Assembly (NCBI GenBank): GCA_036611895.1
Contig: GCA_036611895.1_4766.1
Strand: one strand, 5' to 3'
Source: a phage
DNA: 64,000 nt
The notes beneath the pieces are model-generated. The model had not been told where the DNA came from. It saw nothing but the letters and a program-made list of their open reading frames with translations, and did not search any database. This document shows positions 34,997-51,529 of the stretch, piece after piece (position 1 is the stretch's first letter; every line of letters starts with the position of its first letter). A program made the position numbers and the translations under genes.

Positions 34997-35006
34997 TATT
35001 GGTTGA

Positions 35007-35480: not shown

Positions 35481-35519
35481 TTACATCATCCATAAGACGC
35501 GGAGCGTCTTGGTTTTGGC

Positions 35520-35789: not shown

Positions 35790-35842
35790 GAGTAAACTCC
35801 TGAATTAAAATGATATCCAATAGAAGCGGAGCTTCTTGGTTT

Positions 35843-36214
35843 TTAAGGAATGTAGGACAACCAGGTTAATAGTTCTGCTTTAGCTTTCTGATACTTACTG
35901 TCTACAGTTTCATCTGAGATATCTATGTCTGATTCTCCGTAATGATGGATGTCAGACTGATATTGCTCTTGCTGGCGAATGGCTTCCTCGAATCTATTTA
36001 ATGCTTCAATAGGTTCTTGTTTTTGCCATACCCATAAAGCACCTGCAAGAGGTAGATTGTCATCTTTGTACCAACGTGGTCCTATTCCAGATACACACTT
36101 TAATTTACTATCTTCAGTAAGAATGAATCTTCCTGGTGAGTGAAATTTTCCTACTAGTTCTGTTCCTACAGGAACATCTTTAGTTAATGATTTTACGCAA
36201 ATGTACTTAGCCAT
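35843..36214 (-). CDS. hypothetical protein
   Basis: 123-aa ORF. Confidence 0.4.
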   Translation of the reverse strand: MAKYICVKSLTKDVPVGTELVGKFHSPGRFILTEDSKLKCVSGIGPRWYKDDNLPLAGALWVWQKQEPIEALNRFEEAIRQQEQYQSDIHHYGESDIDISDETVDSKYQKAKAELLTWLSYIP

Positions 36215-36265
36215 TATCTATCTCCAAAGTAGATAGTTATCTACTTTTGACTATCTATCTAATGT

Positions 36266-36295
36266 TCAAAACAGGAGACTCCGAAGAGTCTCCTT
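36266..36295 (-). terminator. rho-independent terminator
   Basis: Plus strand CAAAACAGGAGACTC-CGAA-GAGTCTCCT; 9-bp stem then a T-rich tail in minus sense. Confidence 0.5.
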
Positions 36296-36301
36296 GATGA
36301 C

Positions 36302-36625
36302 TTAGTCTTTAGTCAGGATGTCAATTACTTTGGAATATTCTGCGTTATAGATCCGAGCGTTCTCTGAATCCTTGCAGAATTCCTCGATACTTTTCTTACG
36401 CAGAGTCTCAGTCATAGCTGTTTCCTCTGCCAGTTTATTAACAAAGGTATGCATTTCTAATTTAGTACGAATGGCTTGTTTCTCTGCCATAGTACTAACA
36501 TATGAATTAAGCATACCTACTGCTTTAGTTGCTGTGCTGAATGTATCTGCAACAGTAGTAGCAGCTGAGTTAACAGTACCAAGTAAAGTTCCTGCGGTCA
36601 TACGTACAGTAGCTTGAGTAGTCAT
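36302..36625 (-). CDS. hypothetical protein
   Basis: 107-aa ORF with GGAG RBS. Confidence 0.45.
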   Translation of the reverse strand: MTTQATVRMTAGTLLGTVNSAATTVADTFSTATKAVGMLNSYVSTMAEKQAIRTKLEMHTFVNKLAEETAMTETLRKKSIEEFCKDSENARIYNAEYSKVIDILTKD

Positions 36626-36859
36626 GATGATAGCTCCAATAGTTGATGATAGGACGACATGTCCATAACATGCGGAGCATGTGTAACGTGTAAGGTGGGG
36701 TAGGGTAGTGGCTACACCGTCAACATACCGGGGGGGCTAGTTGAGTGTAAGGGTGTAGCCCCAGCCACACCACTATGGCTGTACATAGCTATCACAATTT
36801 TGACATGCAAAAATATTATAGGCACTATCTCTATAAGCAGATAACTTTGAGGTACTAAC

Positions 36860-36985
36860 ATGAAAGATGGATGGGGTAACTACAATCCTACAGACCCTGA
36901 GAACTGGCTTCACTTTATTGCATGGGCTTGCGCTGTAGGATTCATAAGTATTGTGCTCTTATCACTGGTTCTATCTTATCTGTAA
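36860..36985 (+). CDS. plus-strand micro-ORF encoding a single-TM peptide (41 aa)
   Basis: GAGG RBS 7 nt before the ATG; MKDGWGNYNPTDPENWLHFIAWACAVGFISIVLLSLVLSYL; TTGACA at 36798-36803 upstream; lies antisense within the minus-strand early block. Confidence 0.3.
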   Translation: MKDGWGNYNPTDPENWLHFIAWACAVGFISIVLLSLVLSYL

Positions 36986-37012
36986 ATACTATGGGGGATA
37001 GCTATTTATCCC

Positions 37013-37147
37013 CTATTCATCATAGCGTTTAATACCTAAAACCTTGTATAGCTTACCCTTTACAAGCAATGGTCCACCTACTTCTACGAAAGCTAGGCTG
37101 TGTACTATCACTGGTTCAAGTAAGCCTTTTACTGTTATATACCACAT
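37013..37147 (-). CDS. micro-protein (44 aa)
   Basis: ATG with AAGGA RBS; below the track cutoff. Confidence 0.3.
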   Translation of the reverse strand: MWYITVKGLLEPVIVHSLAFVEVGGPLLVKGKLYKVLGIKRYDE

Positions 37148-37183
37148 ATTAATCCTTATAAGCAGTTAAATAGGAGGAAGTGG

Positions 37184-37588
37184 TTAGTAGCTATCTGTGA
37201 TACCAAAGGACATATGATAACCACCTGTGTTTACATCCCAGGGTTGCGACAAATTAATATCCCAAGGAAGTGTCTTTCCAGATTCAAGTATTCTTATAGA
37301 CCTGAAGGAGTTACCCTCTTTTATCATACTGGTTTTTACTGTTACCGGTAGGAAGATATGGAAGTAATCCCCTTCTGGTGCAAGGTAAGTATCTCCTTCA
37401 TTGAGGGTAACTATCTTTGCTTTGCTGTTAGTGAGAAGTCTATGCCCCTGTGCAAAATCTGCTAACTCTCCTGGTTCCATTATTAGTGTAGAACTCCCAT
37501 AGGTCATAATATGGATGATTGCTTTTTCTGGTTCAGAGGAATAGTGCAGTAAATCTGTACCATTCATCCCTAAGAGTTTAACGTTCAT
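37184..37588 (-). CDS. early paralog-family protein, divergent member
   Basis: Weak match to the family core (IIHIMTYGSSTLIMEPGELADFAQGHRLL). Confidence 0.4.
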   Translation of the reverse strand: MNVKLLGMNGTDLLHYSSEPEKAIIHIMTYGSSTLIMEPGELADFAQGHRLLTNSKAKIVTLNEGDTYLAPEGDYFHIFLPVTVKTSMIKEGNSFRSIRILESGKTLPWDINLSQPWDVNTGGYHMSFGITDSY

Positions 37589-37591
37589 ACT

Positions 37592-37876
37592 TCAGTACCT
37601 TTCCTTATAGATGGGGGTGCTATCATCGAATGATAGGATGTACTTGTCTGTATTAAGATGCCAAGGACTAAAGCTACCCTGCCAGGACATAGGTGTTTCT
37701 GGTTCAAGTAGATGTACTACCGAATTCTTATTGTATAGGAAGAGTAATCCTTGTATCTCATGTAGAGACTGTTCATCTGGAACCAAGATAAGTACATCAG
37801 CATTCAGGTCAGCTATTTCTTTATGGTGGATGTAATTTTCCCCATTAGGCTCTGGATAAATTTTACTGATAACCAT
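37592..37876 (-). CDS. early paralog-family protein
   Basis: Core ILVPDEQSLHEIQGLLFL...HLLEP. Confidence 0.5.
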   Translation of the reverse strand: MVISKIYPEPNGENYIHHKEIADLNADVLILVPDEQSLHEIQGLLFLYNKNSVVHLLEPETPMSWQGSFSPWHLNTDKYILSFDDSTPIYKERY

Positions 37877-38196
37877 TAGAGACTCTCGTCGCTAGATAAA
37901 TATGAGGTAGAAGGGTAGAGGGTAATAAGTCTACCGGTAAGGGTAGTAACTACCGTAGGTTCAGCAGTTGATAAGATATATACTCGTGCAAACTCAGATA
38001 TCTCAACTGATGTATCTATCTTAGTGAATGTAATGGGTATGCCTAACATTAGACATGTACCTATGAACTCATCTGCTTCTTCATTTGGTTCATATAGGAT
38101 AGTAGTTCCATCCATCTTACCATTTAAACAATCTTGTTTAGTTACTTTGCTGCGATAGCAACTTGTACTTAGAGCAACTAATGAGTAGAAGTGCAT
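37876..38196 (-). CDS. early paralog-family protein, divergent member
   Basis: Core TILYEPNEEADEFIGTCLML. Confidence 0.4.
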   Translation of the reverse strand: MHFYSLVALSTSCYRSKVTKQDCLNGKMDGTTILYEPNEEADEFIGTCLMLGIPITFTKIDTSVEISEFARVYILSTAEPTVVTTLTGRLITLYPSTSYLSSDESL

Positions 38197-38199
38197 GGC

Positions 38200-38589
38200 T
38201 TACTTCCTTACATAGTAATAATGGTATTCCTCATTCTCATGACTACTATCCCATTGGTAATCATCAGATACCAACATGAAAGGCAGGGCGTCATATGCAC
38301 TGCTATCGGCATAGACGGAAGGAGGAATGATACATACAACCTTACGATCATTACCTGCTAAGAATAGTTGACCTCTTACTTCATGGTAGTCCTCTAGAGT
38401 AGGAACCAGGATTACATGCTGAGGATTGCTATCTATCACTTCTTCTAAAGTGAAGTCTGTTGTGTACAAGGATTCCCCTTTAATAAAACTGGGGGCGGTC
38501 AGTATGAATTTCATGATGGATTTTCCTTCCTTTAGGAATAGGTCTGAAGTAAACGGAAAGTGTTTTATTAAAGAGGTTATGTTCAACAA
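38200..38589 (-). CDS. early paralog-family protein
   Basis: Core ILVPTLEDYHEVRGQLFL...CIIPP; likely true start is the Met of MKFILTAPSF at 38514. Confidence 0.5.
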   Translation of the reverse strand: MLNITSLIKHFPFTSDLFLKEGKSIMKFILTAPSFIKGESLYTTDFTLEEVIDSNPQHVILVPTLEDYHEVRGQLFLAGNDRKVVCIIPPSVYADSSAYDALPFMLVSDDYQWDSSHENEEYHYYYVRK

Positions 38590-38875
38590 TCATTTCCCAG
38601 CCTGGTACTTTATAGAACCTGACTCCTGGGAAGAATGTTTCGAAGTCTGCATACTCAGTAAGGTCATACACAACTGGTTCAGTAAGTATACGCGTATTGA
38701 TTTGCAGATTACTTAAGAAAAATGAACCAACTATCTCGTGGGATTCTTCGCAGTCTGGTAGGAAGACTATTTGTTTGGATAGGAACTTACTAACTATCTC
38801 TGGTTCCCCTAGGTAGTATGGTTCCTGCTTACGTAGTACACCAGTAATATCAATATCAAAAGCGTAGATGCTCAT
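38480..38875 (-). CDS. early paralog-family protein
   Basis: Core VFLPDCEESHEIVGSFFL...ILTEP. Confidence 0.5.
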   Translation of the reverse strand: MSIYAFDIDITGVLRKQEPYYLGEPEIVSKFLSKQIVFLPDCEESHEIVGSFFLSNLQINTRILTEPVVYDLTEYADFETFFPGVRFYKVPGWEMIVEHNLFNKTLSVYFRPIPKGRKIHHEIHTDRPQFY

Positions 38876-39075
38876 ATTTGCATACCTCCTGAAAAAGAAA
38901 TGGGGTAGAGCCTCTCGACTCTACCCCTTACCGTTTTCTATCACGGGTCAGTTCATCACCCTAGATACATGTGTATCGTTAGCCTACTAGGTAGGAAAGG
39001 AGCCGGGCAACCCTGACTGTAGAAGTTATTAACTCTTTACGAGTACCGCCACTGTCTACTAGGCGGCATGACTAA

Positions 39076-39366
39076 TCACATCGTCACCGTCATCCGAACA
39101 CTGTCTTTGCTTCGCCTGACGGAGACACTATGAGGTAATTTTGTGAAGAACACAAGAGCTGATGGCCCCTTTTCTAAAGAGTAAGTTTCTCTTGGTTCTA
39201 AGATTTTAATGCCCGGACGATTCTCTAAAAGCATCATCCCAGCTAATTCATGGTAGGTATCTTCATTATGGGTAATAATGATATCACCTGAAAGAAAACC
39301 AGCCTTAGTGTGGTCTAGCTCCCTGTATTCATCTTTAGAGCCTGAGACTTTCATATAGATTCTCAA
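39076..39366 (-). CDS. early paralog-family protein
   Basis: Core IIITHNEDTYHELAGMMLL...KILEP; first gene of the minus-strand block. Confidence 0.5.
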   Translation of the reverse strand: MRIYMKVSGSKDEYRELDHTKAGFLSGDIIITHNEDTYHELAGMMLLENRPGIKILEPRETYSLEKGPSALVFFTKLPHSVSVRRSKDSVRMTVTM

Positions 39367-39537
39367 AGGTTACTCCTTTTGGGAATAGGGTCATCGGAAC
39401 AATACATACTATTTAGTATCATGAACTTTTTCTATATCATGACTAAAGTGTAACTGTATGGTATCGTTTCTTCAAGGGGTATCTCACCCCAAGAAAAGAA
39501 TCTTCTTTAATAGACATAACTTTGTAGCGAGATAAGT

Positions 39538-40227
39538 ATGAGTGAACTAACTAAGCAGCAGATTATTAATGCCTTACCTGCTAACTTCAAAAACAGTGTT
39601 ACCCAGGAGTTGGTAGACACGATTAACAACATAACCCAAGACCAACTGGTTGCTGAGTCCTTTCGTGAAAACTTTATCTCCTACTCTGGTGTAATGAAGG
39701 AAGGTAAGTTTAAGACACAGGACTACATGAATGCAGTTCAGTATGTGACTTACAAACATATGGGCTACTCAAATAAGGAAGCCTACTTTAAGACGTTCCC
39801 TAATCGACAAGCAGAACTTGTTGCACGAGGAACCAGTGAGAAAGATATTAGTGCTTATGTATCTGCCTACCACAGGGGTAAGTTAGTTAACCTCATCATG
39901 GAACAAAGTTTGGTTCCAGTGTGGATTGTGAACCAAGACAATTATCAGAAGGCTATCAACGTTCAGGTTGAACTGATGACTACAGCAGCAAGTGAGAAGG
40001 TAAGATGTGATGCAGCTAACTCTATCCTTACTCACTTAGCTAAACCAAAAGATCAGGTAACAAATATCAATCTGGACTTAAGAGAGAACTCCGGATTAAC
40101 TGACCTCAAGGCAACACTTGCTGCATTAGCTGAACAGCAGATTAATGCAATCAATAGTGGTGTACCTACCAAAGAGGTTGCTGGTTCTAAACTAGTACGT
40201 GCAGATGAGGACATTACAGATGTCTGA
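39538..40227 (+). CDS. hypothetical protein (possible small terminase subunit)
   Basis: 229-aa ORF immediately upstream of and overlapping the large terminase. Confidence 0.35.
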   Translation: MSELTKQQIINALPANFKNSVTQELVDTINNITQDQLVAESFRENFISYSGVMKEGKFKTQDYMNAVQYVTYKHMGYSNKEAYFKTFPNRQAELVARGTSEKDISAYVSAYHRGKLVNLIMEQSLVPVWIVNQDNYQKAINVQVELMTTAASEKVRCDAANSILTHLAKPKDQVTNINLDLRENSGLTDLKATLAALAEQQINAINSGVPTKEVAGSKLVRADEDITDV

Positions 40228-41809
40228 GTTAATTAAACAGGAACTGGATGAGTGGCTAGACCAGGTGGATTACTCCCACCTTAATTCTTCTAACTACGTT
40301 CCTAGTCAGTTTGCTCTTACCTTTGCCAACTTTATTAAGTTGGTTAATGGCAAAGAGGGTGAGTCCAACAAAACACCTCCAGTTCACTTGAAGATGCTGG
40401 ATAAGATGATTAGTCCTAACCAGTATGTAGTTAACCTGTGCTTCCGTGGTGCAGGTAAGACTGCTGTGTTCATGGAATACTTTACTTTATTCCTGGCAGT
40501 GTTTGGTCACTTACCAAGCCTGGGTAAAGTAGAAGGAATGATTTACGTATCAGACTCAATGGATAACGGTGCTAAGTCTGCACGTAAGAACATTGAGTTT
40601 CGCTACAAGAATAGTGAGTTCCTTCAGCAATGGATACCTGAAGCTACCTTTACGGATAACCTATTAGAGTTTCGTAATGTAGAAGGGCATCGACTTGGTG
40701 TTAAGTTGTTTGGTGCTAAGACAGGTCTTCGTGGTACGAAGATATATGGTAAACGTCCAACACTTTGTGTACTGGATGACTTGATTAGTGATGGTGATGC
40801 TAACTCCAAGACTAGCATGGAAGCTATTAAGGATACCGTCTATAAAGGTGTGAACCATGCACTTGACCCAACCCGTCGTAAAGTAATCTTCAATGGTACT
40901 CCCTTTAATAAGGAAGATATTATCATTGAAGCTGTTGAGTCTGGTGCATGGGATGTCAACGTATGGCCTGTATGTGAGAAGTTCCCCTGTAGTAGGGAAG
41001 AATTTCAGGGTGCATGGGATGATCGTTTCTCTTACGATTACATTAAAGCCCAATATGACATGGCAGTTAAGACTGGTAAGTTGGCTGGCTTCTATCAGGA
41101 ACTTATGCTCCGTATTAGCTCCGAAGATGAGAGACTGGTTCAGGATAGTGAAATAAGGTGGTATAGCAGACAACAACTGTTAAGGATGAAGTCCTGCTAC
41201 AACTATTATATTACAACCGACTTTGCTACTTCGGAGAAACAGACCAGTGACTACAGTGTCATATCAGTTTGGGCTTATAGTTCTAATGGAGATTGGTTCT
41301 GGGTTGATGGTGTGGCTAATCGTCAGCTTATGGATAAAAACTTTGATGACCTGTTCCGTCTGGTTCAAGAATACCAACCCCAAAATGTTGGAGTCGAAAT
41401 CACAGGACAGCAGGGTGGATTCATCTCACTCCTTCAGAAAGAAATGATTAACCGTAATGTCTTCTTTAACTTTGCATCCTCTGAGGGTGGTAAGCCAGGC
41501 ATACGTCCTGTAACCTCTAAGCTGTCACGCTTTAACCTGGTAGTTCCATGGTTCAAAGCTGGTAAGATGTACTTCCCAGAAGAGTTGAGAGATTCAACTA
41601 TTATGGGTCTGTTCATGGGTCAGATTAAACTAGCTACCATTAATGGAATCAAAGGTAAGGATGACTGTATTGATACTATCTCTATGCTGGGTTATCTCAA
41701 TCCTTGGAAACCACAAGCAGGTATGACTATGGTGGATAACAAGGGCGACCCAATGTGGGATGATGAAGAAGAAGATAGTGTTAACCCATTACGTTCGTAC
41801 ATTGTGTGA
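40220..41809 (+). CDS. terL: terminase large subunit
   Basis: Walker A FRGAGKTAV; C-terminal nuclease-like acidic motifs; track ORF starts at a GTG at 40199, but the ATG at 40220 has a GAGGA RBS. Confidence 0.8.
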   Translation: MSELIKQELDEWLDQVDYSHLNSSNYVPSQFALTFANFIKLVNGKEGESNKTPPVHLKMLDKMISPNQYVVNLCFRGAGKTAVFMEYFTLFLAVFGHLPSLGKVEGMIYVSDSMDNGAKSARKNIEFRYKNSEFLQQWIPEATFTDNLLEFRNVEGHRLGVKLFGAKTGLRGTKIYGKRPTLCVLDDLISDGDANSKTSMEAIKDTVYKGVNHALDPTRRKVIFNGTPFNKEDIIIEAVESGAWDVNVWPVCEKFPCSREEFQGAWDDRFSYDYIKAQYDMAVKTGKLAGFYQELMLRISSEDERLVQDSEIRWYSRQQLLRMKSCYNYYITTDFATSEKQTSDYSVISVWAYSSNGDWFWVDGVANRQLMDKNFDDLFRLVQEYQPQNVGVEITGQQGGFISLLQKEMINRNVFFNFASSEGGKPGIRPVTSKLSRFNLVVPWFKAGKMYFPEELRDSTIMGLFMGQIKLATINGIKGKDDCIDTISMLGYLNPWKPQAGMTMVDNKGDPMWDDEEEDSVNPLRSYIV

Positions 41810-41815: not shown

Positions 41816-42526
41816 ATGCAAAAATTATCGGAAGTATATCGAGGCTTGGCACTAAGTACCTTAAAAGGTACTGGTGCAGTCACTGATGACAGATTAGATA
41901 TTGAACCAGATAGTAAGCCTGAAATATTGGCTGCTATTAATGAAGGACTGGTACGACTGCATAGTCGTTTCCCTCTTAGAACTAATAGCTGCATTGTAGA
42001 GATGAAGGAAGGTCGGACTGATTATCCTCTACAATCTAAGTATGCTTACTCCAGATTTACTAAGTCTACGCTTGAGATTCAATATCCATATATCATGGAT
42101 GGGTTCATGAAACCTTTCCAAGATGATGTTATTAAAATCTTAAATGTGTTTGATAACTCAGGGAATCGCCGTAGACTGAACGATGATTCAGACCCTCATG
42201 CAATTTTCACCCCTCGGCCTGATACTATTCAGTGTATGCGTCCTCGACACTTCGAGGCACTTAACGTAACTTATCAAGCTAAGCACCCAGTACTTACGGG
42301 TGATGAAGAACAGGAAGTTGATTTAGCTGATACGCTAATGACGGCACTTCATAACTGGGTGGGTTATCGTTACCACACTGGTTTGAATACTCCGGAAGCT
42401 AATGCTAAGGCAGCAGAGTATCTGCAAACATACGAAAGCATCTGTGGTGAGGTTGTTGATTACGACCTGGCTAATGGAAGTATTTCAATTACCGAAACTA
42501 AATTTGAACAACGAGGATGGCGATGA
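41816..42526 (+). CDS. virion structural protein
   Basis: 236-aa ORF between terminase and tail spike. Confidence 0.4.
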   Translation: MQKLSEVYRGLALSTLKGTGAVTDDRLDIEPDSKPEILAAINEGLVRLHSRFPLRTNSCIVEMKEGRTDYPLQSKYAYSRFTKSTLEIQYPYIMDGFMKPFQDDVIKILNVFDNSGNRRRLNDDSDPHAIFTPRPDTIQCMRPRHFEALNVTYQAKHPVLTGDEEQEVDLADTLMTALHNWVGYRYHTGLNTPEANAKAAEYLQTYESICGEVVDYDLANGSISITETKFEQRGWR

Positions 42527-45210
42527 ACGCACACAACCCTTTTGATGCAAAACAGGATTGGACTAATCCTTACTGCCAGAATAGTTCCAATGACCCAATG
42601 GTGGATGCACTACTTGGTAATGCTTACCATGTGGTTCGTACTGTGTACTGCAACCTGGGTAATCTTAAACTCCTGTATGATTTCCTGAACCAGTATGGAA
42701 TGGTACTTGGTGTACAGTCTGAGGCAGAACTTAAGGCTCTAACCACTGATGCTAAATATGCACGTATCTATGGCTTCTCTCGTGCAGGTGATCGTCAGGT
42801 TACTGACTACCTGTATGTGGAAGGCGACCGTACCGGTATTATTCCAGATGACCCAGAAGCAACTGGTTCGTGGATTACTGTTGCTACTACTGGTTCCAAT
42901 GGGGGTGGTACTTCCTCCAGTGAGGGTGCTTATATCCCTTGGGTATACAGCAATGGTTCTGCTACTGGTGGGGAAACTTCCATTAACGTACCGGATGGGA
43001 CAGTAGGTGTACCCTTTATTATTGTTAATGGTGATATGCAGTATGTAGGGCGAGGTTTTGAGTTTAACGCAGATAACCTTTCCGTAACTCTGGCTCAGCC
43101 TTTGGAAGAAGGTGATGAAGTAGTATTCCTTCTGACTGGAGTTCCTGCTGTACCGGACAATCCCAATGTTAATGACTGGGTTCAGATTAACTGGTTATAC
43201 AACAATGGTGCTGCTGTAGGTGGTGAGCAGGTTATTGCTGTTCCTTATACCTTCCAGTCTATTCCAGCCGTGTATAAGAATGGGCTTCGTTTGTATAAAG
43301 GTTTAGCTTCTGAATCTTATACTGCTGACCCAGATAACCAACGTATTCTTCTTACTGAACCACTGGCAACCAATGACCGATTAATTGTACAGATTGGTGG
43401 TGAAGCACAGGTACTGGAAACATCAGACCATACTCTTCAGGAAGTTGCTCGTGCTACTAACGTTAAGGATAGTGAGGTAATTCTTAGCACTGACACAACT
43501 CAATTCCTAAATGGTAAGAAGATTGTTTACTCTGTTAGTGAGCAGAAGTCCTATAGATTACCTACATTACCTACTAACGTATTTATTTCTTCCGTTAATG
43601 GTAACCAACTAACATACAATCCTGGTGGGATTGTTGTTGACCTGCTCCCTGCACCTAATGATGTAATTCCAGTGGAGAATGAGTTGCAGGCATATAAAAC
43701 GGCTATGGTTACTGATGGAGGAACATTAGTAAATTCTGGCTTATCTGGTGTTTCTTCTGCAATTAAGCGAACCATTGATAGCCATTTTAAAGACTACTAT
43801 AACGTTAAAGATTTTGGTGCTGTTGGAGACGGTGTAACTGATGATACTGAGGCTATTCAATTAGCGGTATCATTCCTTGGAGATTTAACTACTAAAACTA
43901 TGTTTAGTAGACCATCTGTACTGTTTTTCCCTGAGGGTGATTACTTAACCAGTAAGCCCATTATCTTGTGGGATGGTGTTACTTTACGTGGGGCATCTCA
44001 ATCTTCTACAAGGATTCAGATGACTTCTTCTACTAATACTACGGAAGTCACTACTAATTCCCCTGTTAGGAATCTTCCACGTAATGTTAACTGTATTCTT
44101 GCGGTGTTCTCTTCTGGAACAGGTTACCCATATAGAACTACTATCTCTGATATTCAATTGTATGGTATAGCCGGTACAGCTGGAGTAACTACAGGCAAAG
44201 TAGCCTATGCAATCTATGCACCGGAAGCAGCATTTCTAACCGTGGAAAGGGTACGCACTTGGTATACAAACTATGGCATTATGTCATATAACCTGTGGAT
44301 GAGTACTTTTCGAGACTTAGATTTACGCGAACATGCTGAGTGGAGCTTCTTACTATCTAACGATAGTACTGGTAGAGGAGGTTCTACATCTATTTCCCTA
44401 GAACGGGTATATGGTCATACGAGTGAAGGTGGAATTAAACTATATGGGGCCAATTATTCTACATTGTCTTCCTGTGGAGTAGATGCAGCAGGTTCGTCTA
44501 ATCCCTCCGCAGCGGATGCGGCATCTAAAGCCCCATATGTATTTGAAAGTTGCCAGGGTCTTGTAGCCAATTCTTTAGGCGCAGAATCTATTTATACAAG
44601 TCGTTGTATCATTGTTATTGGCGGGCATGTAACCCTTAATGAGCCTGATTTATACGCTTGGCGTGGTGATGTCACTGGGCGGCGTATGTATGGAGTACAT
44701 GTAACGGTAAATGGCAACCTAGTACTTAATGGTGGTAGGTTATATGGAATTCAGTTCAGAGCAACTGATGCTACCGAATGCTTTGCAGTAGTACAGTCGG
44801 ATGGTGTTAATGGGTCTGTTCAATGCAATGGGTCATTAATTTCTGATGCTTCTGTTGACTCTGAAGGTACAGCGATTGGTAATATTTTCTTTGGTTCCCG
44901 TACTTATAGAGGCAGGACTATTCAGCAAGAAGCAGGGATATCTAGATACCAGACTAATACCTTAACCCTTATTGCAAGTGTTACTACTGGTGATTTATTC
45001 TCATCTGGCTTAGATACTACAAGGTATACTGTAATAGATGCTGTAGCTCAAATTCATAGTAATTCCCCTACACTAGACCAGGCAAAGCTAAAAGTGCAGG
45101 TTATGAATGTCAGTGCAAATAGTGCTAGAATTTGGATTATTAATCCAGATGGTACTGCTAACTTCACTGCCCAAACCTTACGTGTAACATTCACATATAG
45201 AGTAAATTAA
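42517..45210 (+). CDS. tail spike with pectate-lyase-like beta-helix domain
   Basis: NVKDFGAVGDGVTDDTEAIQLAV matches the pectate_lyase_3/tailspike signature; 897 aa. Confidence 0.75.
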   Translation: MAMNAHNPFDAKQDWTNPYCQNSSNDPMVDALLGNAYHVVRTVYCNLGNLKLLYDFLNQYGMVLGVQSEAELKALTTDAKYARIYGFSRAGDRQVTDYLYVEGDRTGIIPDDPEATGSWITVATTGSNGGGTSSSEGAYIPWVYSNGSATGGETSINVPDGTVGVPFIIVNGDMQYVGRGFEFNADNLSVTLAQPLEEGDEVVFLLTGVPAVPDNPNVNDWVQINWLYNNGAAVGGEQVIAVPYTFQSIPAVYKNGLRLYKGLASESYTADPDNQRILLTEPLATNDRLIVQIGGEAQVLETSDHTLQEVARATNVKDSEVILSTDTTQFLNGKKIVYSVSEQKSYRLPTLPTNVFISSVNGNQLTYNPGGIVVDLLPAPNDVIPVENELQAYKTAMVTDGGTLVNSGLSGVSSAIKRTIDSHFKDYYNVKDFGAVGDGVTDDTEAIQLAVSFLGDLTTKTMFSRPSVLFFPEGDYLTSKPIILWDGVTLRGASQSSTRIQMTSSTNTTEVTTNSPVRNLPRNVNCILAVFSSGTGYPYRTTISDIQLYGIAGTAGVTTGKVAYAIYAPEAAFLTVERVRTWYTNYGIMSYNLWMSTFRDLDLREHAEWSFLLSNDSTGRGGSTSISLERVYGHTSEGGIKLYGANYSTLSSCGVDAAGSSNPSAADAASKAPYVFESCQGLVANSLGAESIYTSRCIIVIGGHVTLNEPDLYAWRGDVTGRRMYGVHVTVNGNLVLNGGRLYGIQFRATDATECFAVVQSDGVNGSVQCNGSLISDASVDSEGTAIGNIFFGSRTYRGRTIQQEAGISRYQTNTLTLIASVTTGDLFSSGLDTTRYTVIDAVAQIHSNSPTLDQAKLKVQVMNVSANSARIWIINPDGTANFTAQTLRVTFTYRVN

Positions 45211-45216
45211 ACTTTA

Positions 45217-45240
45217 CCCCCCTCTTCGGAGGGGGTTTTA
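45217..45240 (+). terminator. rho-independent terminator
   Basis: CCCCCTC-TTCG-GAGGGGG followed by TTTTA. Confidence 0.6.
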
Positions 45241-45262
45241 CTAGAAAAACAAAGAGGTCGTT

Positions 45263-47320
45263 ATGAACGAGTTATTCTCACAAGGTGGTAAAGGCTCTAC
45301 TGGTATTCTTACCAATAAACAAGCCATTGCTCGTAAGTTCGGTGTTAAGCATAATGAAGTAGTCTACTTTGCTGTAGGTGTAGACTTGGGTGGTTATAAA
45401 GTCATCTATGACAAGTCTACTCAGCGTGCTTATTCTTTACCTGCACTACCGGTAGGAACCACTGCTGTAAGTCTCAATGTACATGCAGTTCTGGTTCATT
45501 CAGCAGGTACAGTTGATTTGGGTGAACTGGCTGCTACACGTAGGGAGTTCGTAAACCTATCCGACTCGTTTGCTACCGGTTTAATCGTGAATACTAGAAA
45601 TGAATTACTATTCCATAATGGTATAGGTTACACCTACTTAGGCACTCTACCTGTAACAATTACCGCAGGAATTAATCCAGTTGGCAACCCCGATTGGAAA
45701 CCTCAGACAGACCCGAATTTTGGGCGGGATGAAGTTAATGATGACATTCGTGCTTACGTTAGAGACGGCGATCCCATCGCCCCAGACTATACTCAAGCAT
45801 TAAAGCGAGCTATAGCAAGTGGTCGTGGTCGTGTTTACATTAATGTACCTGTTGAGATTAAAGAGGATTTGACAATCCCACGTCTTTTCCGGGTAGATGT
45901 AGATAAAAACGGGTATATATACTCAACGACAAATAAAGTTCGTATTGAGGGTTTTATTAACTCAATAGGTGGTGGTGATCCGTATCGCAACTATATCAAA
46001 CAATACGGGGTCAATTCCTCTACCGTCCCGGGCGTGTACATGGCTAACGTAGTGGTCAATATCCCGGAAGACTTCCCTACGATGCAGGCCGCTATAGATG
46101 CCGTACCGGATAACTACTGGCAGTTTATTACCTTGCAGATATCTGATGGAATCTACGACGAAGATTTGGTTATTCGTAATAAGAAGGGTTGCTGCCCTAC
46201 GTTCCCACCAGCTTCTGGTCAGCAGGCAATTCTGGTTATCACTAGTAAGTCTAAAGACAGGTCTAAAGTGAGCTTCCGCTCAGCTCAGGTATTTTCTTGC
46301 GGTGGTACTCCATTCTCTCCTAATCTGGAGAACCTTAACTTCACTAACCGTACGCACAGTGATGAGGATTGTTCTGTAGAATTCTACGGCTGCACTAGTG
46401 GAGCAGTTAATAAGTGCAGCTTTAATGGTGTAGGCGTAGACAAGTGCATCGAAGCATACAACAGCATAATTATCGTAGAAGCGTGCCACTTCGGGGATAA
46501 TATCAACGATAAAGGAATGGTAGTTAAGCATGGCGGTACTATCTTGTCTGCCTCTACTCAGATTGGTGGTATACTGCAACCTATTACTGGAACCTTAAAG
46601 TCCTGGGTAGCAGTAGGTATTGGTGGCACTATCATAGCTAACGACCTCAGTTCTTGTATTGGCAAGGTAGCACAGTCTCGCGTAGATGGCGTGCAGTCAG
46701 GGGTAATAGTTGAAACCGTAAGTAAGAGCATTAACGGAGTAACTAACTTCTTCAGACTAGCTACCACTCGCCACCATACGCAATTCCAGGATTATGACAA
46801 GTTCACTAATACTGTAACTGGTTCGGGTTCCAGTCTTAATTACTACCCTGAAGGGGGGTTAGTGGTTAATGCGGGTACTGCCGGAGGTACTGCCCTGCTT
46901 CGCTATAAAAGAGAACGTCGCCTAGTTCGTCAGCATGAAACCTCTAACTATTTAGGCTTTGCTGTAGCCTGCACAGTCCCCAGTGGAGTGACCGCACTTA
47001 ACTGTCATTTAGTATGTGGCTCAGTGGAAAGTGGCAACTACTTCGGTATCCGTTATATCAATAATGTCGCTCATGGCGTCATCTGCCGGGGAGGAGTAGA
47101 AACTACTACTCCATTAGCTTATAGCACTGAAACTATATGTACATGGACGTGTAAGTATTTAGGTAAGGGTGATGGTCAAGTATTGTTTATGTATGATGAT
47201 GTATATGCTGGGCATATTAATGGCATTAAGCTTGCTTCTTACGATGGCACGTATTTCGAAGCTAACGTAACCAACGCTCGCACGCAACTGTACGAACTTG
47301 AGTTCGTAAGCAGTATGTAA
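45263..47320 (+). CDS. tail fibre/spike protein
   Basis: 685-aa ORF after the first tail spike; Gly/Thr/Asn-rich beta-rich composition. Confidence 0.45.
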   Translation: MNELFSQGGKGSTGILTNKQAIARKFGVKHNEVVYFAVGVDLGGYKVIYDKSTQRAYSLPALPVGTTAVSLNVHAVLVHSAGTVDLGELAATRREFVNLSDSFATGLIVNTRNELLFHNGIGYTYLGTLPVTITAGINPVGNPDWKPQTDPNFGRDEVNDDIRAYVRDGDPIAPDYTQALKRAIASGRGRVYINVPVEIKEDLTIPRLFRVDVDKNGYIYSTTNKVRIEGFINSIGGGDPYRNYIKQYGVNSSTVPGVYMANVVVNIPEDFPTMQAAIDAVPDNYWQFITLQISDGIYDEDLVIRNKKGCCPTFPPASGQQAILVITSKSKDRSKVSFRSAQVFSCGGTPFSPNLENLNFTNRTHSDEDCSVEFYGCTSGAVNKCSFNGVGVDKCIEAYNSIIIVEACHFGDNINDKGMVVKHGGTILSASTQIGGILQPITGTLKSWVAVGIGGTIIANDLSSCIGKVAQSRVDGVQSGVIVETVSKSINGVTNFFRLATTRHHTQFQDYDKFTNTVTGSGSSLNYYPEGGLVVNAGTAGGTALLRYKRERRLVRQHETSNYLGFAVACTVPSGVTALNCHLVCGSVESGNYFGIRYINNVAHGVICRGGVETTTPLAYSTETICTWTCKYLGKGDGQVLFMYDDVYAGHINGIKLASYDGTYFEANVTNARTQLYELEFVSSM

Positions 47321-47328
47321 ATAAAACT

Positions 47329-47356
47329 AAGCCCCCTTAACTGGGGGCTTTTCTTA
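47329..47356 (+). terminator. rho-independent terminator
   Basis: AAGCCCCC-TTAACT-GGGGGCTT followed by TTCTT. Confidence 0.65.
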
Positions 47357-47569
47357 TATAGAGTCTACTGTTTGCATTACCCTAATGGATACTGATGTTA
47401 AGATTATTACTTGCCCAGATATATTAAACATACCCAACTGAATACCATCCACCATGAGTTGATACCAGATACTACGTCTGGATGTATTTCATCATACTAA
47501 GTATTATCTAAGAGTCATCTTATGATATGACCCTATTGGGGATTCTAACTACACAACTACGGTAATATT

Positions 47570-47899
47570 ATGAATGAATCGGGTGAACTACTCCTAGTCA
47601 GACTGGAGGAACGATTGAAGACTCTGTTTGAGAACCAGACAAGGGAAAGGCAGGACCGTGAGAAACTGGAGGAAACTCTGGTAGAACTACGGGATTCAAT
47701 CAATGACATAGGCAATAGGCTGAAAAATGTGGAGGATAGCTTAGCTAAGAATGAACCTACTATTGAAGAGTTCATTACCATTAAGCATAAAGTTGTTGGT
47801 GCTGGGATTTTCGGTAAGTGGGTATGGGCTGGGGCAGGTGCAATTATTGGTGTATTGGCTGCTGCAAGACGGGAGATTTTCACATGGTTCGCAGGCTAA
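47570..47899 (+). CDS. membrane protein with coiled-coil (possible holin/antiholin)
   Basis: N-terminal charged coiled-coil region and C-terminal TM helix (VVGAGIFGKWVWAGAGAIIGVLAAA); sits at the head of the lysis cassette. Confidence 0.35.
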   Translation: MNESGELLLVRLEERLKTLFENQTRERQDREKLEETLVELRDSINDIGNRLKNVEDSLAKNEPTIEEFITIKHKVVGAGIFGKWVWAGAGAIIGVLAAARREIFTWFAG

Positions 47900-48144
47900 A
47901 GAGAAAGATTGAGTTAGTACCCAATTGGAAAAGGTGCTGGAAGTGGGCATCTATTCAGATTAGTACATTTGGATTAATTATGTTTTCTGCCATAGATATC
48001 ATTCAACCAATGTTGACAGGACTACCCCGTCATATCCTGGAAGATATTCCCCATGGTTCCAATATTGCAATCGCACTGTTTGCCTTAAACATTGTAGGCA
48101 GATTAATACGATTCCGACCAAAGGAAAATTCACATGAAAGCTAA
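47884..48144 (+). CDS. holin-like protein (two TM helices)
   Basis: Starts MVRRLKRK; two hydrophobic helices; directly upstream of the endolysin. Confidence 0.45.
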   Translation: MVRRLKRKIELVPNWKRCWKWASIQISTFGLIMFSAIDIIQPMLTGLPRHILEDIPHGSNIAIALFALNIVGRLIRFRPKENSHES

Positions 48145-48769
48145 ACAGAAACTTGCTGCGAAAGGAGGTGCAGTGGGAGGAGTTGTCGCTGCTATCCTGG
48201 GGGCAGTGTTCTATATGGAAGGGGGATATGTAAACAATCCTCGTGACCCAGGTGGGGAAACTAATCATGGAATTACCCAATCTGTAGCTAAATCTCATAA
48301 AGAAGTCCTGGCTACTGAGTATGGTTGGGATGGTTCTATGAAAGGTTTATCAAAAGAGATGGCTGCTGAGATATACATTGATGACTATGTACTTAAGCCT
48401 AACTTCGTAGCCTTCGCTGATATATCTCCTGCTGTAACACACAAGCTGGTAGATGCTGGTGTTAACACTGGTGTAACCCGTCCTGCTAAGTGGTTGCAGT
48501 TATCTCTTAATGAAATGTCCCGTAATGGCAAAGACTACCCTAAAATACAGGTTGATGGTAAAGTCGGTACAAGTACTGTTAATGCATATAAAGCATTACA
48601 GAAAAAACGAGGCAAAGTTGCAGCATGTCAGGTAATGATTAAGTTACTTGACGCCAAACAACTGAACCACTACACCTCATTAAACATGCCAGACTTTACG
48701 TATGGTTGGGTAGCTAACCGAATAGGCAATGTGCCACTGGAGGCATGTAATGAAGATGCTAATCTCTAA
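48134..48769 (+). CDS. endolysin, GH108-type N-acetylmuramidase with peptidoglycan-binding domain
   Basis: EGGYVNNPRDPGGETNHGIT signature; AAGGAAA RBS; Gly/Ala-rich N-terminal hydrophobic segment (possible SAR). Confidence 0.75.
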   Translation: MKAKQKLAAKGGAVGGVVAAILGAVFYMEGGYVNNPRDPGGETNHGITQSVAKSHKEVLATEYGWDGSMKGLSKEMAAEIYIDDYVLKPNFVAFADISPAVTHKLVDAGVNTGVTRPAKWLQLSLNEMSRNGKDYPKIQVDGKVGTSTVNAYKALQKKRGKVAACQVMIKLLDAKQLNHYTSLNMPDFTYGWVANRIGNVPLEACNEDANL

Positions 48770-49256
48770 AGGTTGGCCTTATCTTCTGGTGGTGGTCCTT
48801 GGGGCCACCATTTACTTTTGGGGTAATTCCAATGGGCAGTCTACTGTTCAAAAGAAATGGGATGCTCAAAAGGTTGAAGACCAAAAGGCAACACAAAAAT
48901 TACAGGACAAATACAATGCTCTCCAAAGAAACCATAGTTATGAAGTCGGGTTACTCACTTCCCGGTTGCAGACGGCTGAGAGTAATTACGCAAGCGAGCT
49001 TGCTCGCGTTAGCAGTGATTACGACAGCCGGATGCAACAGTCTGAAAGACGAGCATCGGTATATAAACGTCAAGCCGAAGCCGGAGCCTTTGAGTGCAGA
49101 AGTCTTGCAAGCCATGCAGCCAGACTCGACAACAGTCTTGAAGAAGGCAGACGTTTGGTTGAAGAACTCCGGGCAACTGTTAGACTCCGTGACAGCCAAC
49201 TAATTGAGTTGGGTAAACAGATTCAGGCTGACCGTAAACTTTTTGAACAGGAATAA
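48750..49256 (+). CDS. i-spanin (Rz-like)
   Basis: N-terminal TM ([17 protein letters not shown]) followed by a coiled-coil region; GGAGG RBS 7 nt upstream. Confidence 0.6.
48940..49203 (+). CDS. o-spanin (Rz1-like lipoprotein), embedded in +1 frame of the i-spanin
   Basis: Signal peptide ending in lipobox-like TAGC, followed by a Pro-rich mature part of about 56 aa. Confidence 0.55.
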   Translation: MKSGYSLPGCRRLRVITQASLLALAVITTAGCNSLKDEHRYINVKPKPEPLSAEVLQAMQPDSTTVLKKADVWLKNSGQLLDSVTAN

Positions 49257-49258: not shown

Positions 49259-51529
49259 ATGGAACACCAAGACACTTTTAAGCCTTTACCAGACCCGGCT
49301 CAATCAGAGAAGTTAACGGACTGGAAGAAGGAACCAAGTATCCAATTACTGAAAGGTGATTTGGAATCAGCTAAACCTGCTCACGATGCAATCATGGCAC
49401 AGATTCGTGAGTGGAATGACCTGATGGAAGTTAAGGGTAAGGCTAAACCCCCAAAGGTTAAAGGACGATCCCAAGTCCAACCTAGACTGGTTCGCCGTCA
49501 GGCAGAGTGGCGTTATGCTCCATTGTCTGAACCATTCCTCTCATCCAATAAACTTTTCAAGGTAACCCCTGTAACTTTTGAAGATGAGTTAGCTGCACGT
49601 CAGAATGAATTAGTTCTTAACTACCAATTCCGTACTCAGCTTAATAAAGTAAAACTGGTAGATGATTATGTTCACAGTATCGTAGATGACGGTACTGGTA
49701 TTGCTCGCATTGGTTGGGAACGTAAGACTGTTAAGATTAAAACAGAAACTCCAGTCTTCCAGTTGTATCCGATTGAGAACCAAGAACAAGCAGATATTCT
49801 TCAGCAGGCTTTACAGCTTCAGGCAGAAAATCCTCGTGAGTATGATGAAACAATGCCCGAAGATATTAAGGAAGCTGTTAACTACTTCAATGAAACTGGA
49901 GAAGCTACCTATGCAATCCAGACTGGTGTTACTGAGGTAGAGGTAGAGAAAGCACTGGTTAACAGACCGACTGTTGAAATGCTTAACCCCAATAACGTAG
50001 TTATTGACCCAAGCTGTAATGGGGACTTGGACAAAGCTTTGTATGCAGTTATCTCGTTTGAGACATGCAAAGCAGACCTCATGAAGAACAAGGACCGTTA
50101 CCACAATCTGGATAAGATTGACTGGGAAAGTTCTAGTCCTATGACTGACCCAGACCATGAAAGTAAAACTCCTAGTGACTTTCAGTTTAAAGATGCACTA
50201 CGTAAGAAAGTAGTTGCTTATGAATACTGGGGATTCTACGACATCAATGATGATGGTTCGCTGGAACCAATTGTTGCTACCTGGATTGGTTCTACTCTTA
50301 TCCGTATGGAGAAGAACCCATTCCCGGATGGTAAGTTACCGTTGGTAGTTGTTCCTTACATGCCACGTAAACGTGAACTCTATGGTGAAGCTGATGCTGA
50401 ATTGTTAGGTGATAATCAAGCAATTCTTGGTGCAACTATGCGTGGGATGATTGACCTGTTGGGTCGAAGTGCAAATGGACAACGTGGTTATCCTAAAGGG
50501 ATGTTAGATACCCTTAACCGTCGTCGTTATGATGATGGACAAGACTATGAATACAACCCAATGCAGGGTAACCCTAGTCAGGCCATTATGGAACATAAGT
50601 TCCCTGAGTTACCTCAGTCGGCAATAGTAATGACTCAGATGCAGAACCAGGAAGCAGAAGCACTAACAGGTGTTAAAGCATTCTCTGGTGGCGTAACTGG
50701 TGAAGCTTACGGTGATGTTGCTGCTGGTATTCGTGGTGTACTCGATGCAGCATCCAAACGTGAGATGGCAATCCTTCGTCGATTAGCTAAGGGTATGGCA
50801 GACATTGGTACTAAGATTTGTGCAATGAATGCTGTGTTCTTATCTGAGAAGGAAGTGGTACGTATTACTAATGAGCAGTATGTAGAAATTAACCGTGAAG
50901 ACCTTAAAGGTAACTTCGATATTGAAGTTGATATTAATACTGCTGAGATTGATAACCAGAAATCTCAAGACCTGAGCTTCATGGTTCAAACGTTAGGTAA
51001 TACAGTGGACCAGACTATTACGTTATCTCTTGTAGCTAAGATTGCAGAACTTAAACGTATGCCTGACCTTGCTCATGAGTTACGTACCTGGCGACCACAA
51101 CCAGACCCTATGGAAGAACAGCTTAAGCAATTGGCAATTCAGAAAGCACAGCTTGAGAATGAAGAGTTGAAAAGTAAGATTGCACTCAATAATGCTAAAG
51201 CGAAAGAAGCTATTTCTAGTGGTGACCTTAAAGACCTGGATTATCTGGAACAGGAATCTGGTACTAAACATGCTCGTGATATGGAGAAACAAAAAGCACA
51301 ATCTCAAGGAAACCAGAACCTTCAGATAACTAAGGCGTTGACAACACCTACTAAAGAAGGTGAAACTACCCCCAACATATCTGCTGCTGTCGGATATAAC
51401 GCTTTGACTAACGGGAACTCTTTACAGGAACGTGACTTAGCTGCACAGCAAGACCCGACTTATTCACTTAGTTCCCAGTATTATGACCCTAGCCAAGACC
51501 CAGCATCGGCTCTTGGTATGAACTTATAA
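49259..51529 (+). CDS. portal protein
   Basis: 756-aa ORF upstream of scaffold-like and capsid genes; assignment by size and synteny. Confidence 0.5.

What the first reader, a model, noticed from the sequence alone, without database searches (positions are those of the whole stretch)
42517..47320. Two large tail proteins, one with a pectate-lyase-type beta-helix signature
The motif NVKDFGAVGDGVTDDTEAIQLAV in the 897-aa protein is the hallmark N-terminal strand of pectate_lyase_3-type tailspike depolymerases. This implies the receptor is a surface polysaccharide (capsule, EPS or O-antigen). The second 685-aa protein may provide a second specificity.
Basis: partly seen in the sequence, partly recalled or inferred. 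Interest (0 to 1): 0.4.

Follow-up and report, generated by a model that had tools for sequence, protein, structure and literature searches.

The report
G7C-type two-tailspike host-recognition module
These two genes encode the ordinary, already well-described branched pair of tailspikes of an N4-like (G7C-type) E. coli phage; each carries its own sugar-binding beta-helix domain swapped in from unrelated phages, and which host sugars they recognise is still unknown.

Summary
ORFs 42517-45210 (897 aa) and 45263-47320 (685 aa) exist as stated, and the quoted motif lies at aa 429-451 of the first.

The window is a Gamaleyavirus-like (N4/G7C-type, Schitoviridae) phage. Gene order is terminase, adaptor, RBP1, RBP2, lysis genes, portal.

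- **RBP1 (897 aa):** a virion anchor, then tandem T4 gp10-like XD2/XD3 domains, a head domain, a PF12708 beta-helix (E 6.5e-20, predicted fold agrees) and a C-terminal beta-sandwich.
- **RBP2 (685 aa):** a G7C gp63.1 / CBA120 TSP1-type docking head, a second shorter beta-helix and a lectin-like C-terminal domain.

Each receptor-binding domain is a separate mosaic cassette that ends at a terminator hairpin.
- The RBP1 cassette (about 43560-45235) is 85-100% identical in DNA to TSP2 of Salmonella Kuttervirus myophages.
- The RBP2 cassette (about 45720-47344) is rare. Relatives occur in Ackermannviridae, a Phapecoctavirus-like phage and P22-like prophages.

No characterised relative reveals either receptor, and enzyme activity was not tested. 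Verdict: a new member of a known kind, of low interest.

The parts
41816..42526 (+). 236-aa tail adaptor (N4 gp67-like, SU10-adaptor-like). This is the ring to which the N-terminus of RBP1 attaches.
   Evidence: PF24175 SU10_adaptor E=3.6e-6; phrog_2125 E=4e-92. In Moo19 and B2 the 234-aa adaptor is modelled together with tailspike residues 10-74 (PMC11654681).
42517..45210 (+). RBP1, 897-aa primary tailspike (G7C gp66 / Moo19 gp82 / B2 gp49 counterpart). Its start overlaps the end of the adaptor gene by 10 nt.
   Evidence: phrog_12242, E=1.9e-280; 9d80 E=5e-158; 9d83 E=1e-137.
42517..42921 (+). RBP1 virion-anchor domain, about aa 1-135.
   Evidence: Aligns to Moo19 gp82 from residue 1. Residues 10-74 of gp82 and gp49 are seen bound to the tail in cryo-EM. 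The domain boundary is approximate.
42934..43140 (+). RBP1 XD2 domain (T4 gp10-like beta-jellyroll), aa 140-208.
   Evidence: Matches CBA120 TSP4-N (7rej) residues 225-335 and TSP2 (6w4q). Internal repeat with aa 224-295: 33% identity, E=2e-12.
43186..43401 (+). RBP1 XD3 domain, aa 224-295, the inferred docking platform for RBP2.
   Evidence: In G7C, binding of gp63.1 requires gp66 XD3 (PMC8825819).
43438..43635 (+). RBP1 head (D1/TD1-like) domain, aa 308-373. It contains the left recombination junction of cassette 1, at about 43555-43590.
   Evidence: 33% identical to RBP2 aa 20-84, E=3e-6. The identity profile switches here from ZQ2-like to SenALZ1-like.
43560..45235 (+). Cassette 1: the RBP1 receptor-binding domain plus its terminator. 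DNA is 85-100% identical to TSP2 of Salmonella Kuttervirus phages (SenALZ1, Se-F, Se-G, SeTs-2, selz, bering). It is absent from the Gamaleyavirus relative ZQ2.
   Evidence: Protein is 91% identical to bering gp7.
43801..43869 (+). The quoted motif NVKDFGAVGDGVTDDTEAIQLAV (aa 429-451), the N-terminal cap of the beta-helix.
43798..44955 (+). RBP1 right-handed parallel beta-helix, about aa 428-813 (PF12708 type).
   Evidence: AF2 model md3ae82583d35; Foldseek PDB matches. aa 777-813 are modelled with low confidence.
44956..45207 (+). RBP1 C-terminal beta-sandwich domain, about aa 814-897.
   Evidence: AF2 model residues 436-518, pLDDT 74-84.
45218..45235 (+). Terminator-like hairpin CCCCCTC-TTCG-GAGGGGG followed by TTTT, 8 nt after the RBP1 stop. 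Right boundary of cassette 1.
   Evidence: Corresponds to 'motif three' of Pas et al. 2023 (PMC10408124).
45263..47320 (+). RBP2, 685-aa secondary tailspike (G7C gp63.1 / CBA120 TSP1 / B2 gp48 counterpart). RBS AAAGAGG lies upstream.
45263..45719 (+). RBP2 docking head (D1-D2 / TD domains) and neck, about aa 1-152. Gamaleyavirus-type sequence, 77-92% nt identity to ZQ2.
45720..47344 (+). Cassette 2: the RBP2 receptor-binding domain. It has no DNA match in ZQ2 or SenALZ1 and is rare in databases.
46025..46762 (+). RBP2 short right-handed beta-helix, about aa 255-500, with a pectinesterase-like N-terminal cap.
46763..47317 (+). RBP2 C-terminal lectin / jelly-roll-like beta-sandwich, about aa 501-685.
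47329..47350 (.). Bidirectional terminator-like hairpin AAGCCCCC-TTAACT-GGGGGCTT, 9 nt after the RBP2 stop. Right boundary of cassette 2; backbone similarity resumes at 47344.

Best explanation
The two genes encode the branched host-adsorption apparatus of a G7C-like (Gamaleyavirus-type, N4-like) podophage. RBP1 (897 aa) trimerises and plugs its N-terminal anchor into the adaptor ring on the tail. Its tandem gp10-like XD2/XD3 domains act as a branching hub. Its own distal part is a PF12708 beta-helix that binds, and most likely cleaves, a surface polysaccharide. RBP2 (685 aa) trimerises and docks its N-terminal head on XD3 of RBP1. It presents a second, unrelated beta-helix plus a lectin-like domain for a second glycan. 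Each tail position therefore carries two different glycan-specific spikes. The most likely receptors are enterobacterial O-antigens. Both receptor-binding domains are exchangeable cassettes. Each is bounded upstream by a conserved head-domain sequence and downstream by a conserved terminator hairpin, and both were acquired by recombination with unrelated phages. Shown here: the homologies, the domain order, the predicted folds and the mosaic boundaries. Inferred: physical docking, enzymatic activity and receptor class.
For: Context: gene order is terminase, adaptor, RBP1, RBP2, holin, GH108 endolysin, Rz, portal. The backbone is 91-93% identical to Gamaleyavirus-type phages HK2, PGN829.1 and pSb-1, and the gene order matches ZQ2.
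RBP1: aa 1-391 match Moo19 gp82 (E=5e-158) and B2 gp49 (E=1e-137). aa 139-390 match full-length CBA120 TSP2, and aa 99-210 match TSP4-N. The XD2/XD3 tandem repeat is confirmed.
RBP2: aa 1-143 match G7C gp63.1, CBA120 TSP1/3/4 and B2 gp48. The solved B2 gp48/gp49 complex (9d84) contains homologues of both partners.
Literature: gp66 and gp63.1 form a stable two-branched complex, and gp63.1 needs gp66 XD3 (PMC8825819). [quoted passage not shown] Tailspike residues 10-74 bind the tail (PMC11654681).
Folds: RBP1 has PF12708 and an AF2 beta-helix with tailspike and depolymerase matches. RBP2 has a beta-helix plus a lectin-like domain.
Mosaicism: with terminator hairpins. The RBP2 receptor-binding domain is found behind three different anchor types: PF18668, the PF09008 P22 head-binding domain, and none. 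It occurs in an Ackermannviridae phage, a Phapecoctavirus-like phage and a P22-like prophage.
Against: No experiment and no complex prediction was run, so RBP1-RBP2 docking rests on homology. No close homologue of either receptor-binding domain has a known receptor; Sorensen et al. 2021 assign no host to the SenALZ1/bering TSP2 type. O-antigen rather than capsule is therefore unproven. Catalytic residues were not identified. The AF2 models are monomers of moderate confidence (pLDDT 77 and 80) with some low-confidence loops. G7C gp63.1, Moo19 gp82 and B2 gp48/49 are esterases, not depolymerases, so a glycan-cleaving activity cannot be assumed from position in the complex.
Confidence: 0.82

Rival explanations
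1. One or both spikes are glycan-modifying esterases (deacetylases) rather than depolymerases, as in G7C gp63.1, Moo19 gp82 and B2 gp48/49. For RBP2 this would be a CE8 (pectinesterase)-like beta-helix esterase.
Confidence: 0.12
2. The receptors are capsular (K-antigen), colanic acid or EPS polysaccharides rather than O-antigens.
For: PF12708 beta-helix spikes include many capsule depolymerases from Acinetobacter and Klebsiella phages among the fold matches. A weak PHROG hit is to a colanic-acid-degrading spike (phrog_8280). Some RBP subtypes of Gamaleyaviruses do not follow O-serogroup (PMC10408124).
Against: Characterised Kuttervirus and Gamaleyavirus spikes of E. coli and Salmonella phages almost all target O-antigens. 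The RBP2 receptor-binding domain is shared with P22-like prophage tailspikes; to my knowledge the characterised members of that class (P22, Sf6, HK620) are O-antigen-specific.
Confidence: 0.2
3. Only one of the two spikes is used on the natural host. The other is a passenger that merely widens potential host range, or is a non-functional relic of recombination.
For: In G7C only gp63.1 is needed on E. coli 4s, and the role of the gp66 distal domain is only hypothesised. The RBP1 receptor-binding domain comes from Salmonella phages, whereas the backbone is from coliphages.
Against: Both ORFs are intact, with conserved cap motifs and well-predicted folds. This view is compatible with the main explanation rather than exclusive of it.
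Confidence: 0.35

Closest known systems
Escherichia phage G7C gp66 / gp63.1 branched tailspike complex (Prokhorov et al. 2017; PDB 4QNL)
   Same: Same backbone type, same gene position and same two-protein logic. RBP1 has an anchor plus XD2/XD3. RBP2 has a head nearly identical to gp63.1 over aa 1-143 (E=2e-51).
   Different: Both distal domains differ. gp63.1 carries an SGNH esterase, while RBP2 here carries a short beta-helix and a lectin-like domain. The RBP1 distal domain here is a Kuttervirus-type PF12708 helix. Receptor specificity is unknown here, whereas G7C targets the E. coli 4s O-antigen.
Shigella phages Moo19 gp82 and B2 gp49/gp48 (PDB 9D80-9D84; PMC11654681)
   Same: RBP1 aa 1-391 align with gp82 (E=5e-158) and with gp49 (E=1e-137). 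RBP2 aa 1-142 align with gp48 (E=8e-49). The gp48/gp49 complex is a direct structural template for docking.
   Different: B2 gp49 is only the anchor and branching module with no receptor-binding domain, whereas RBP1 here keeps a full beta-helix. The Moo19 and B2 spikes are esterases.
Kuttervirus CBA120 TSP1-4 branched complex (Plattner 2019; Chao 2022, PMC8825819)
   Same: XD2/XD3 gp10-like hubs and D1-D2 heads. RBP1 resembles TSP2 and TSP4-N, and RBP2 resembles the TSP1/TSP3 head.
   Different: That is a myophage baseplate with four spikes, against a podophage adaptor ring with two. The anchor domains are not homologous.
TSP2 of Salmonella Kuttervirus phages SenALZ1, Se-F, Se-G, SeTs-2, selz and bering (767 aa)
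   Same: The receptor-binding domain is 91% identical in protein and 85-100% in DNA, including the downstream terminator.
   Different: The N-terminal part differs, and a divergent patch lies at window 44700-44820 (63-72% nt). No receptor is assigned to this TSP2 type in the papers checked.
P22-like (head-binding domain, PF09008) prophage tailspikes of E. coli and Citrobacter
   Same: 53-69% identical to the RBP2 receptor-binding domain over 96-97% of its length.
   Different: A different N-terminal anchor (P22 head-binding domain) and a temperate podophage context. Identity is too low to transfer specificity.

Membership tests
G7C-type (Gamaleyavirus) two-tailspike branched adsorption module | The primary spike has an N-terminal anchor homologous to gp66-class proteins. 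| tested here: met
   aa 1-391 against Moo19 gp82 (9d80), E=5e-158; phrog_12242 E=1.9e-280. About 90% nt identity to the same gene of Gamaleyavirus ZQ2 up to position 43587.
G7C-type (Gamaleyavirus) two-tailspike branched adsorption module | Tandem T4 gp10-like XD2 and XD3 domains in the primary spike. | tested here: met
   Sequence matches to CBA120 TSP4-N and TSP2. Internal repeat aa 140-208 / 224-295, E=2e-12. The fold of this part was not modelled here.
G7C-type (Gamaleyavirus) two-tailspike branched adsorption module | The secondary spike has a gp63.1/TSP1-type D1-D2 head. | tested here: met
G7C-type (Gamaleyavirus) two-tailspike branched adsorption module | Gene order adaptor, RBP1, RBP2, lysis cassette in an N4-like genome. 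| tested here: met
G7C-type (Gamaleyavirus) two-tailspike branched adsorption module | A physical RBP1-RBP2 complex on the virion. | not testable with these tools
   Inferred from the solved B2 gp48/gp49 complex and from G7C deletion data.
Pfam PF12708 (Pectate_lyase_3 / Pect-lyase_RHGA_epim) beta-helix, for RBP1 | Profile score above the gathering threshold. | tested here: met
   72.3 bits against 27, E=6.5e-20, aa 428-518.
Pfam PF12708 (Pectate_lyase_3 / Pect-lyase_RHGA_epim) beta-helix, for RBP1 | Right-handed parallel beta-helix fold. | tested here: met
   AF2 model with pLDDT mostly above 90 across the helix. Foldseek probability 1.0 to tailspikes and AlgE4. This is a prediction, not a solved structure.
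Pfam PF12708 (Pectate_lyase_3 / Pect-lyase_RHGA_epim) beta-helix, for RBP1 | Polysaccharide-cleaving activity. | not testable with these tools
   Conserved acidic residues among close homologues (E570, D600, D616, D656, E690, E709, E754, D781) are candidates only.
CE8 pectinesterase (PF01095), for RBP2 | Profile score above the gathering threshold. | tested here: not met
   20.5 bits against 27. Only one relative reaches 27.7 bits.
CE8 pectinesterase (PF01095), for RBP2 | Catalytic Gln-Asp / Asp motifs aligned. | tested here: not met
   Alignments cover only profile positions 10-126 of 298 and carrot PME residues 13-95, which is the cap region.
SGNH esterase tailspike (catalytic part of G7C gp63.1), for RBP2 | An SGNH hydrolase domain after the head. 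| tested here: not met
   Similarity to 4qnl ends at aa 143. There is no SGNH Pfam hit. The model shows a beta-helix instead.

The most novel reading that the evidence does not exclude
The RBP2 distal module combines a short beta-helix with a pectinesterase-type cap and a C-terminal lectin-like jelly-roll. It has about 25 relatives among 5.8 billion proteins and none is characterised. It could be a new class of tailspike enzyme, for example a beta-helix esterase or a lyase for an unusual O-antigen, that moves between four phage lineages: a Gamaleyavirus-like phage, Ackermannviridae, a Phapecoctavirus-like phage and P22-like prophages.
Probability: 0.1. Interest if true: 0.45.

Novelty: new member of a known kind. 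Interest (0 to 1): 0.2.

Why it matters
It matters mainly for annotation and host-range prediction. The module shows cleanly how G7C-type phages retarget themselves. Whole receptor-binding cassettes are swapped between a conserved head-domain sequence and a terminator hairpin. Here one cassette is shared with Salmonella myophages of another family, and the other with myophages and P22-like prophages. If the receptors were determined, two more RBD-to-glycan assignments would carry over to the Kuttervirus, Phapecoctavirus-like and prophage carriers of the same cassettes. There is no new mechanism or principle.

Tried and rejected
1. Predicting the receptor of RBP1 from the Kuttervirus phages that share its receptor-binding domain. 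Sorensen et al. 2021 and the 2024 review list receptors for TSP1-3 (O18A) and TSP3-1 (O4/O9) of these phages but none for their TSP2 type.
2. Predicting serogroups from E. coli prophages. Among 5,426 complete E. coli genomes, the RBP2 receptor-binding domain has one weak match (65% nt over 47%). The RBP1 domain has only a 54-bp motif match. This is too little to infer specificity.
3. Pas et al. 2023 main text and supplements do not include SenALZ1, bering or CBA6.
4. Filing RBP2 as a CE8 pectinesterase-type esterase. Rejected as membership: the match is sub-threshold and covers only the cap.
5. A single ~2.07-kb Kuttervirus block covering the RBP1 receptor-binding domain plus the RBP2 N-terminus, as the megablast suggested. 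The bin-wise identity profile rejects it. Downstream of 45240 the sequence is closer to Gamaleyavirus ZQ2 than to SenALZ1, so only the RBP1 domain and its terminator are Kuttervirus-like.
6. Looking up the source contig by the exact RBP2 protein found no gene record. The cluster look-up gave only the NCBI accession MEF6482073.1 on a 72,516-bp contig.
7. The global TM-scores for the RBP2 model are low (about 0.2), apparently because the domains of this monomer model are not in a native relative arrangement. Only the domain-level matches were used.
Full report
**Observation.** The ORF listing gives two + strand ORFs at exactly the stated coordinates: 42517..45210 (897 aa) and 45263..47320 (685 aa). 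The quoted motif NVKDFGAVGDGVTDDTEAIQLAV is at aa 429-451 of the first, window 43801-43869. It opens a Pfam PF12708 match (the family formerly named Pectate_lyase_3) at aa 428-518, with E=6.5e-20 and 72.3 bits against a cut-off of 27.

**Genomic context.** The neighbours, in order, are:
- a gp69-like protein (39538..40227);
- the large terminase (40199..41809);
- a 236-aa SU10/N4-gp67-type adaptor (41816..42526);
- the two large proteins;
- a 109-aa membrane protein, a holin, a GH108 endolysin and an Rz spanin;
- an SU10/N4-type portal (49259..51529), followed by scaffold-like, major capsid and virion proteins.

The upstream 22.5 kb is 91-93% identical to Escherichia phages HK2 and PGN829.1 and Shigella phage pSb-1. 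The gene order is that of Gamaleyavirus ZQ2. The 685-aa protein is identical to NCBI MEF6482073.1 on a 72,516-bp contig filed under an E. coli assembly. The window is therefore most of a G7C-like (Schitoviridae, Enquatrovirinae) phage genome.

**RBP1 (897 aa).**
- aa 1-391 align end to end with the solved Moo19 tailspike gp82 (9d80, E=5e-158) and with B2 gp49 (9d83, E=1e-137).
- aa 139-390 align with full-length CBA120 TSP2 (6w4q), and aa 99-210 with the TSP4 N-terminal fragment (7rej).
- aa 140-208 and 224-295 are a tandem repeat (33% identity, E=2e-12). These are the XD2 and XD3 T4 gp10-like jelly-rolls described for G7C gp66 and CBA120 TSP2/TSP4 (PMC8825819).
- aa 308-373 resemble aa 20-84 of RBP2 (E=3e-6), which makes them a D1-type head domain.
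- An AlphaFold2 model of aa 379-897, built on 23 homologues, has mean pLDDT 77, with most of the helix above 90. It shows a neck helix, a long right-handed beta-helix and a C-terminal beta-sandwich.
- Foldseek against the PDB returns phage tailspikes and depolymerases (AS12 gp42, Belisarius gp86, CBA120 TSP2, Sf6, Klebsiella K2 spikes) and AlgE4/6 epimerases, all at probability 1.0.
- The motif residues F433, G434, G437, D438, G439 and D442 are invariant across the alignment. The motif is a structural cap of the helix, not a demonstrated catalytic site.

**RBP2 (685 aa).**
- aa 1-143 match G7C gp63.1 (4qnl, E=2e-51), CBA120 TSP1 (E=1e-50), B2 gp48 (E=8e-49) and TSP3/TSP4.
- The AF2 model (pLDDT 80) has the D1-D2 head, a short beta-helix (about aa 255-500) and a C-terminal beta-sandwich (about aa 501-685).
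- A weak pectinesterase (PF01095) signal recurs in 17 of 23 family members. It is sub-threshold for RBP2 and covers only the cap of the helix, not the CE8 catalytic motifs.
- RBP2 is therefore a second beta-helix spike, not an SGNH esterase like gp63.1. Its chemistry is open.

**How it most likely works.**
- *From published structures and deletion work:* the first ~75 residues of the primary spike bind the tail next to the adaptor ring (PMC11654681). gp63.1 binds G7C gp66 through XD3 (PMC8825819). B2 gp48/gp49 is a solved complex of homologues of both partners. Gamaleyaviruses are described as carrying two O-antigen-specific RBPs whose N-termini parallel Kuttervirus TSP2 and TSP1/3/4 (PMC10408124).
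- *Transferred here by strong homology:* RBP1 is both the tail-attached hub and a spike, and RBP2 hangs from XD3. Each branch then offers two glycan specificities.
- *Inferred only:* enzymatic activity and the class of receptor (most likely O-antigen).

**Mosaic structure.** A 60-nt identity profile (following) shows the following segments.

| Window region | Closest sequence | Identity |
|---|---|---|
| up to ~43555 | ZQ2 (Gamaleyavirus backbone) | ~88-95% |
| ~43560 to ~45235 | TSP2 of Kuttervirus SenALZ1 (also Se-F, Se-G, SeTs-2, selz, bering) | 85-100%; no match in ZQ2 |
| 45240-45720 | ZQ2 again, closer than SenALZ1 | 77-92% against 65-80% |
| 45720-47344 | neither | no match |
| from 47344 | ZQ2 backbone | 89% |

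- The Kuttervirus-like segment has one divergent patch at 44700-44820.
- Each cassette starts inside or just after a conserved head domain. Each ends at a GC-rich hairpin with a T-run just after the stop codon: 45218-45235 and 47329-47350.
- These boundaries match the recombination hot-spot motifs proposed by Pas et al..
- The RBP1 receptor-binding domain is 91% identical to bering gp7 and has few other relatives.
- The RBP2 receptor-binding domain has only 25 relatives in the large protein collection. They sit behind three anchor types (PF18668, the P22 head-binding domain PF09008, or none).
- Carriers are an Ackermannviridae TSP cluster (L004), a Phapecoctavirus-like 144-kb myophage (L003) and a P22-like prophage beside its integrase (L006).
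- In the phage collection its best match is phage CBA6 at 52%, then Vibrio phages at ~30%.

**Receptor identity.** I could not determine it. The papers checked assign no host to the SenALZ1/bering TSP2 type. Complete E. coli genomes hold almost no copy of either receptor-binding domain.

**Comparison and verdict.** Every sequence-testable defining feature of the G7C-type branched two-tailspike module is met; only physical complex formation could not be tested. PF12708 membership of RBP1 is met. CE8 and SGNH membership of RBP2 are not met. The architecture, its homology to Kuttervirus TSP complexes and cross-genus exchange of receptor-binding domains are all published. What is specific here is the particular pair of cassettes. 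No phage record covers 80% or more of the 4.8-kb region. The RBP2 distal module is also uncharacterised. This is a new member of a known kind and of low interest. There is a small chance that the RBP2 module hides an unusual enzymatic activity.

Noticed in passing
window 47570-49256: Lysis cassette downstream of the spikes. It holds a 109-aa protein with a C-terminal hydrophobic segment (phrog_5211, function unknown; its ZQ2 homologue is labelled 'tail length tape-measure protein', apparently a misnomer), a holin (phrog_1356), a GH108 plus PG_binding_3 endolysin, and Rz. An embedded +1-frame ORF (48799-49203) contains a lipobox-like ...TTAGC and is probably Rz1.
   Followed up: partly
window 44700-44820: Within the otherwise 85-100% identical Kuttervirus-like receptor-binding domain of RBP1, two 60-nt bins drop to 63-72% identity (aa ~728-768). 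This may be a specificity-determining surface patch or a second small recombination tract.
   Followed up: no
window 688-843 and 1904-1975 (- strand): ARAGORN calls three tRNA-like genes: tRNA-Ile (anticodon aat), an adjacent tRNA with an undetermined two-base anticodon, and tRNA-Ala (cgc). They were not examined further.
   Followed up: no
window ~32000-39500: GC content dips to 0.37-0.40. The coding strand and the GC skew switch sign near 39.4 kb, which is the boundary between the leftward genes and the rightward late module. Many small overlapping ORFs lie on the - strand at 37.8-39.4 kb.
   Followed up: no
whole window / NCBI MEF6482073.1: The phage genome is deposited as a 72,516-bp contig inside an 'Escherichia coli' assembly (locus tag U9527_21155), with the spike annotated as hypothetical. 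This suggests a phage co-sequenced with its host or carried by it. The exact 897-aa RBP1 sequence is not in the protein collection, so its start may have been called differently there.
   Followed up: partly
L003 8001-18100 (Phapecoctavirus-like contig, SRR13871286): This 144-kb myophage carries at least three proteins with the PF18668 Tail_spike_N head. One of them has the RBP2-type receptor-binding domain (84% identity). The same docking head is therefore used in a third myophage lineage.
   Followed up: partly
window 47351-47569: About 220 bp of non-coding spacer lies between the RBP2 terminator and the next gene. It contains a weak sigma-70-like site (47398-47425) and a small hairpin (47465-47481), and is conserved with ZQ2 (89%).
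   Followed up: no
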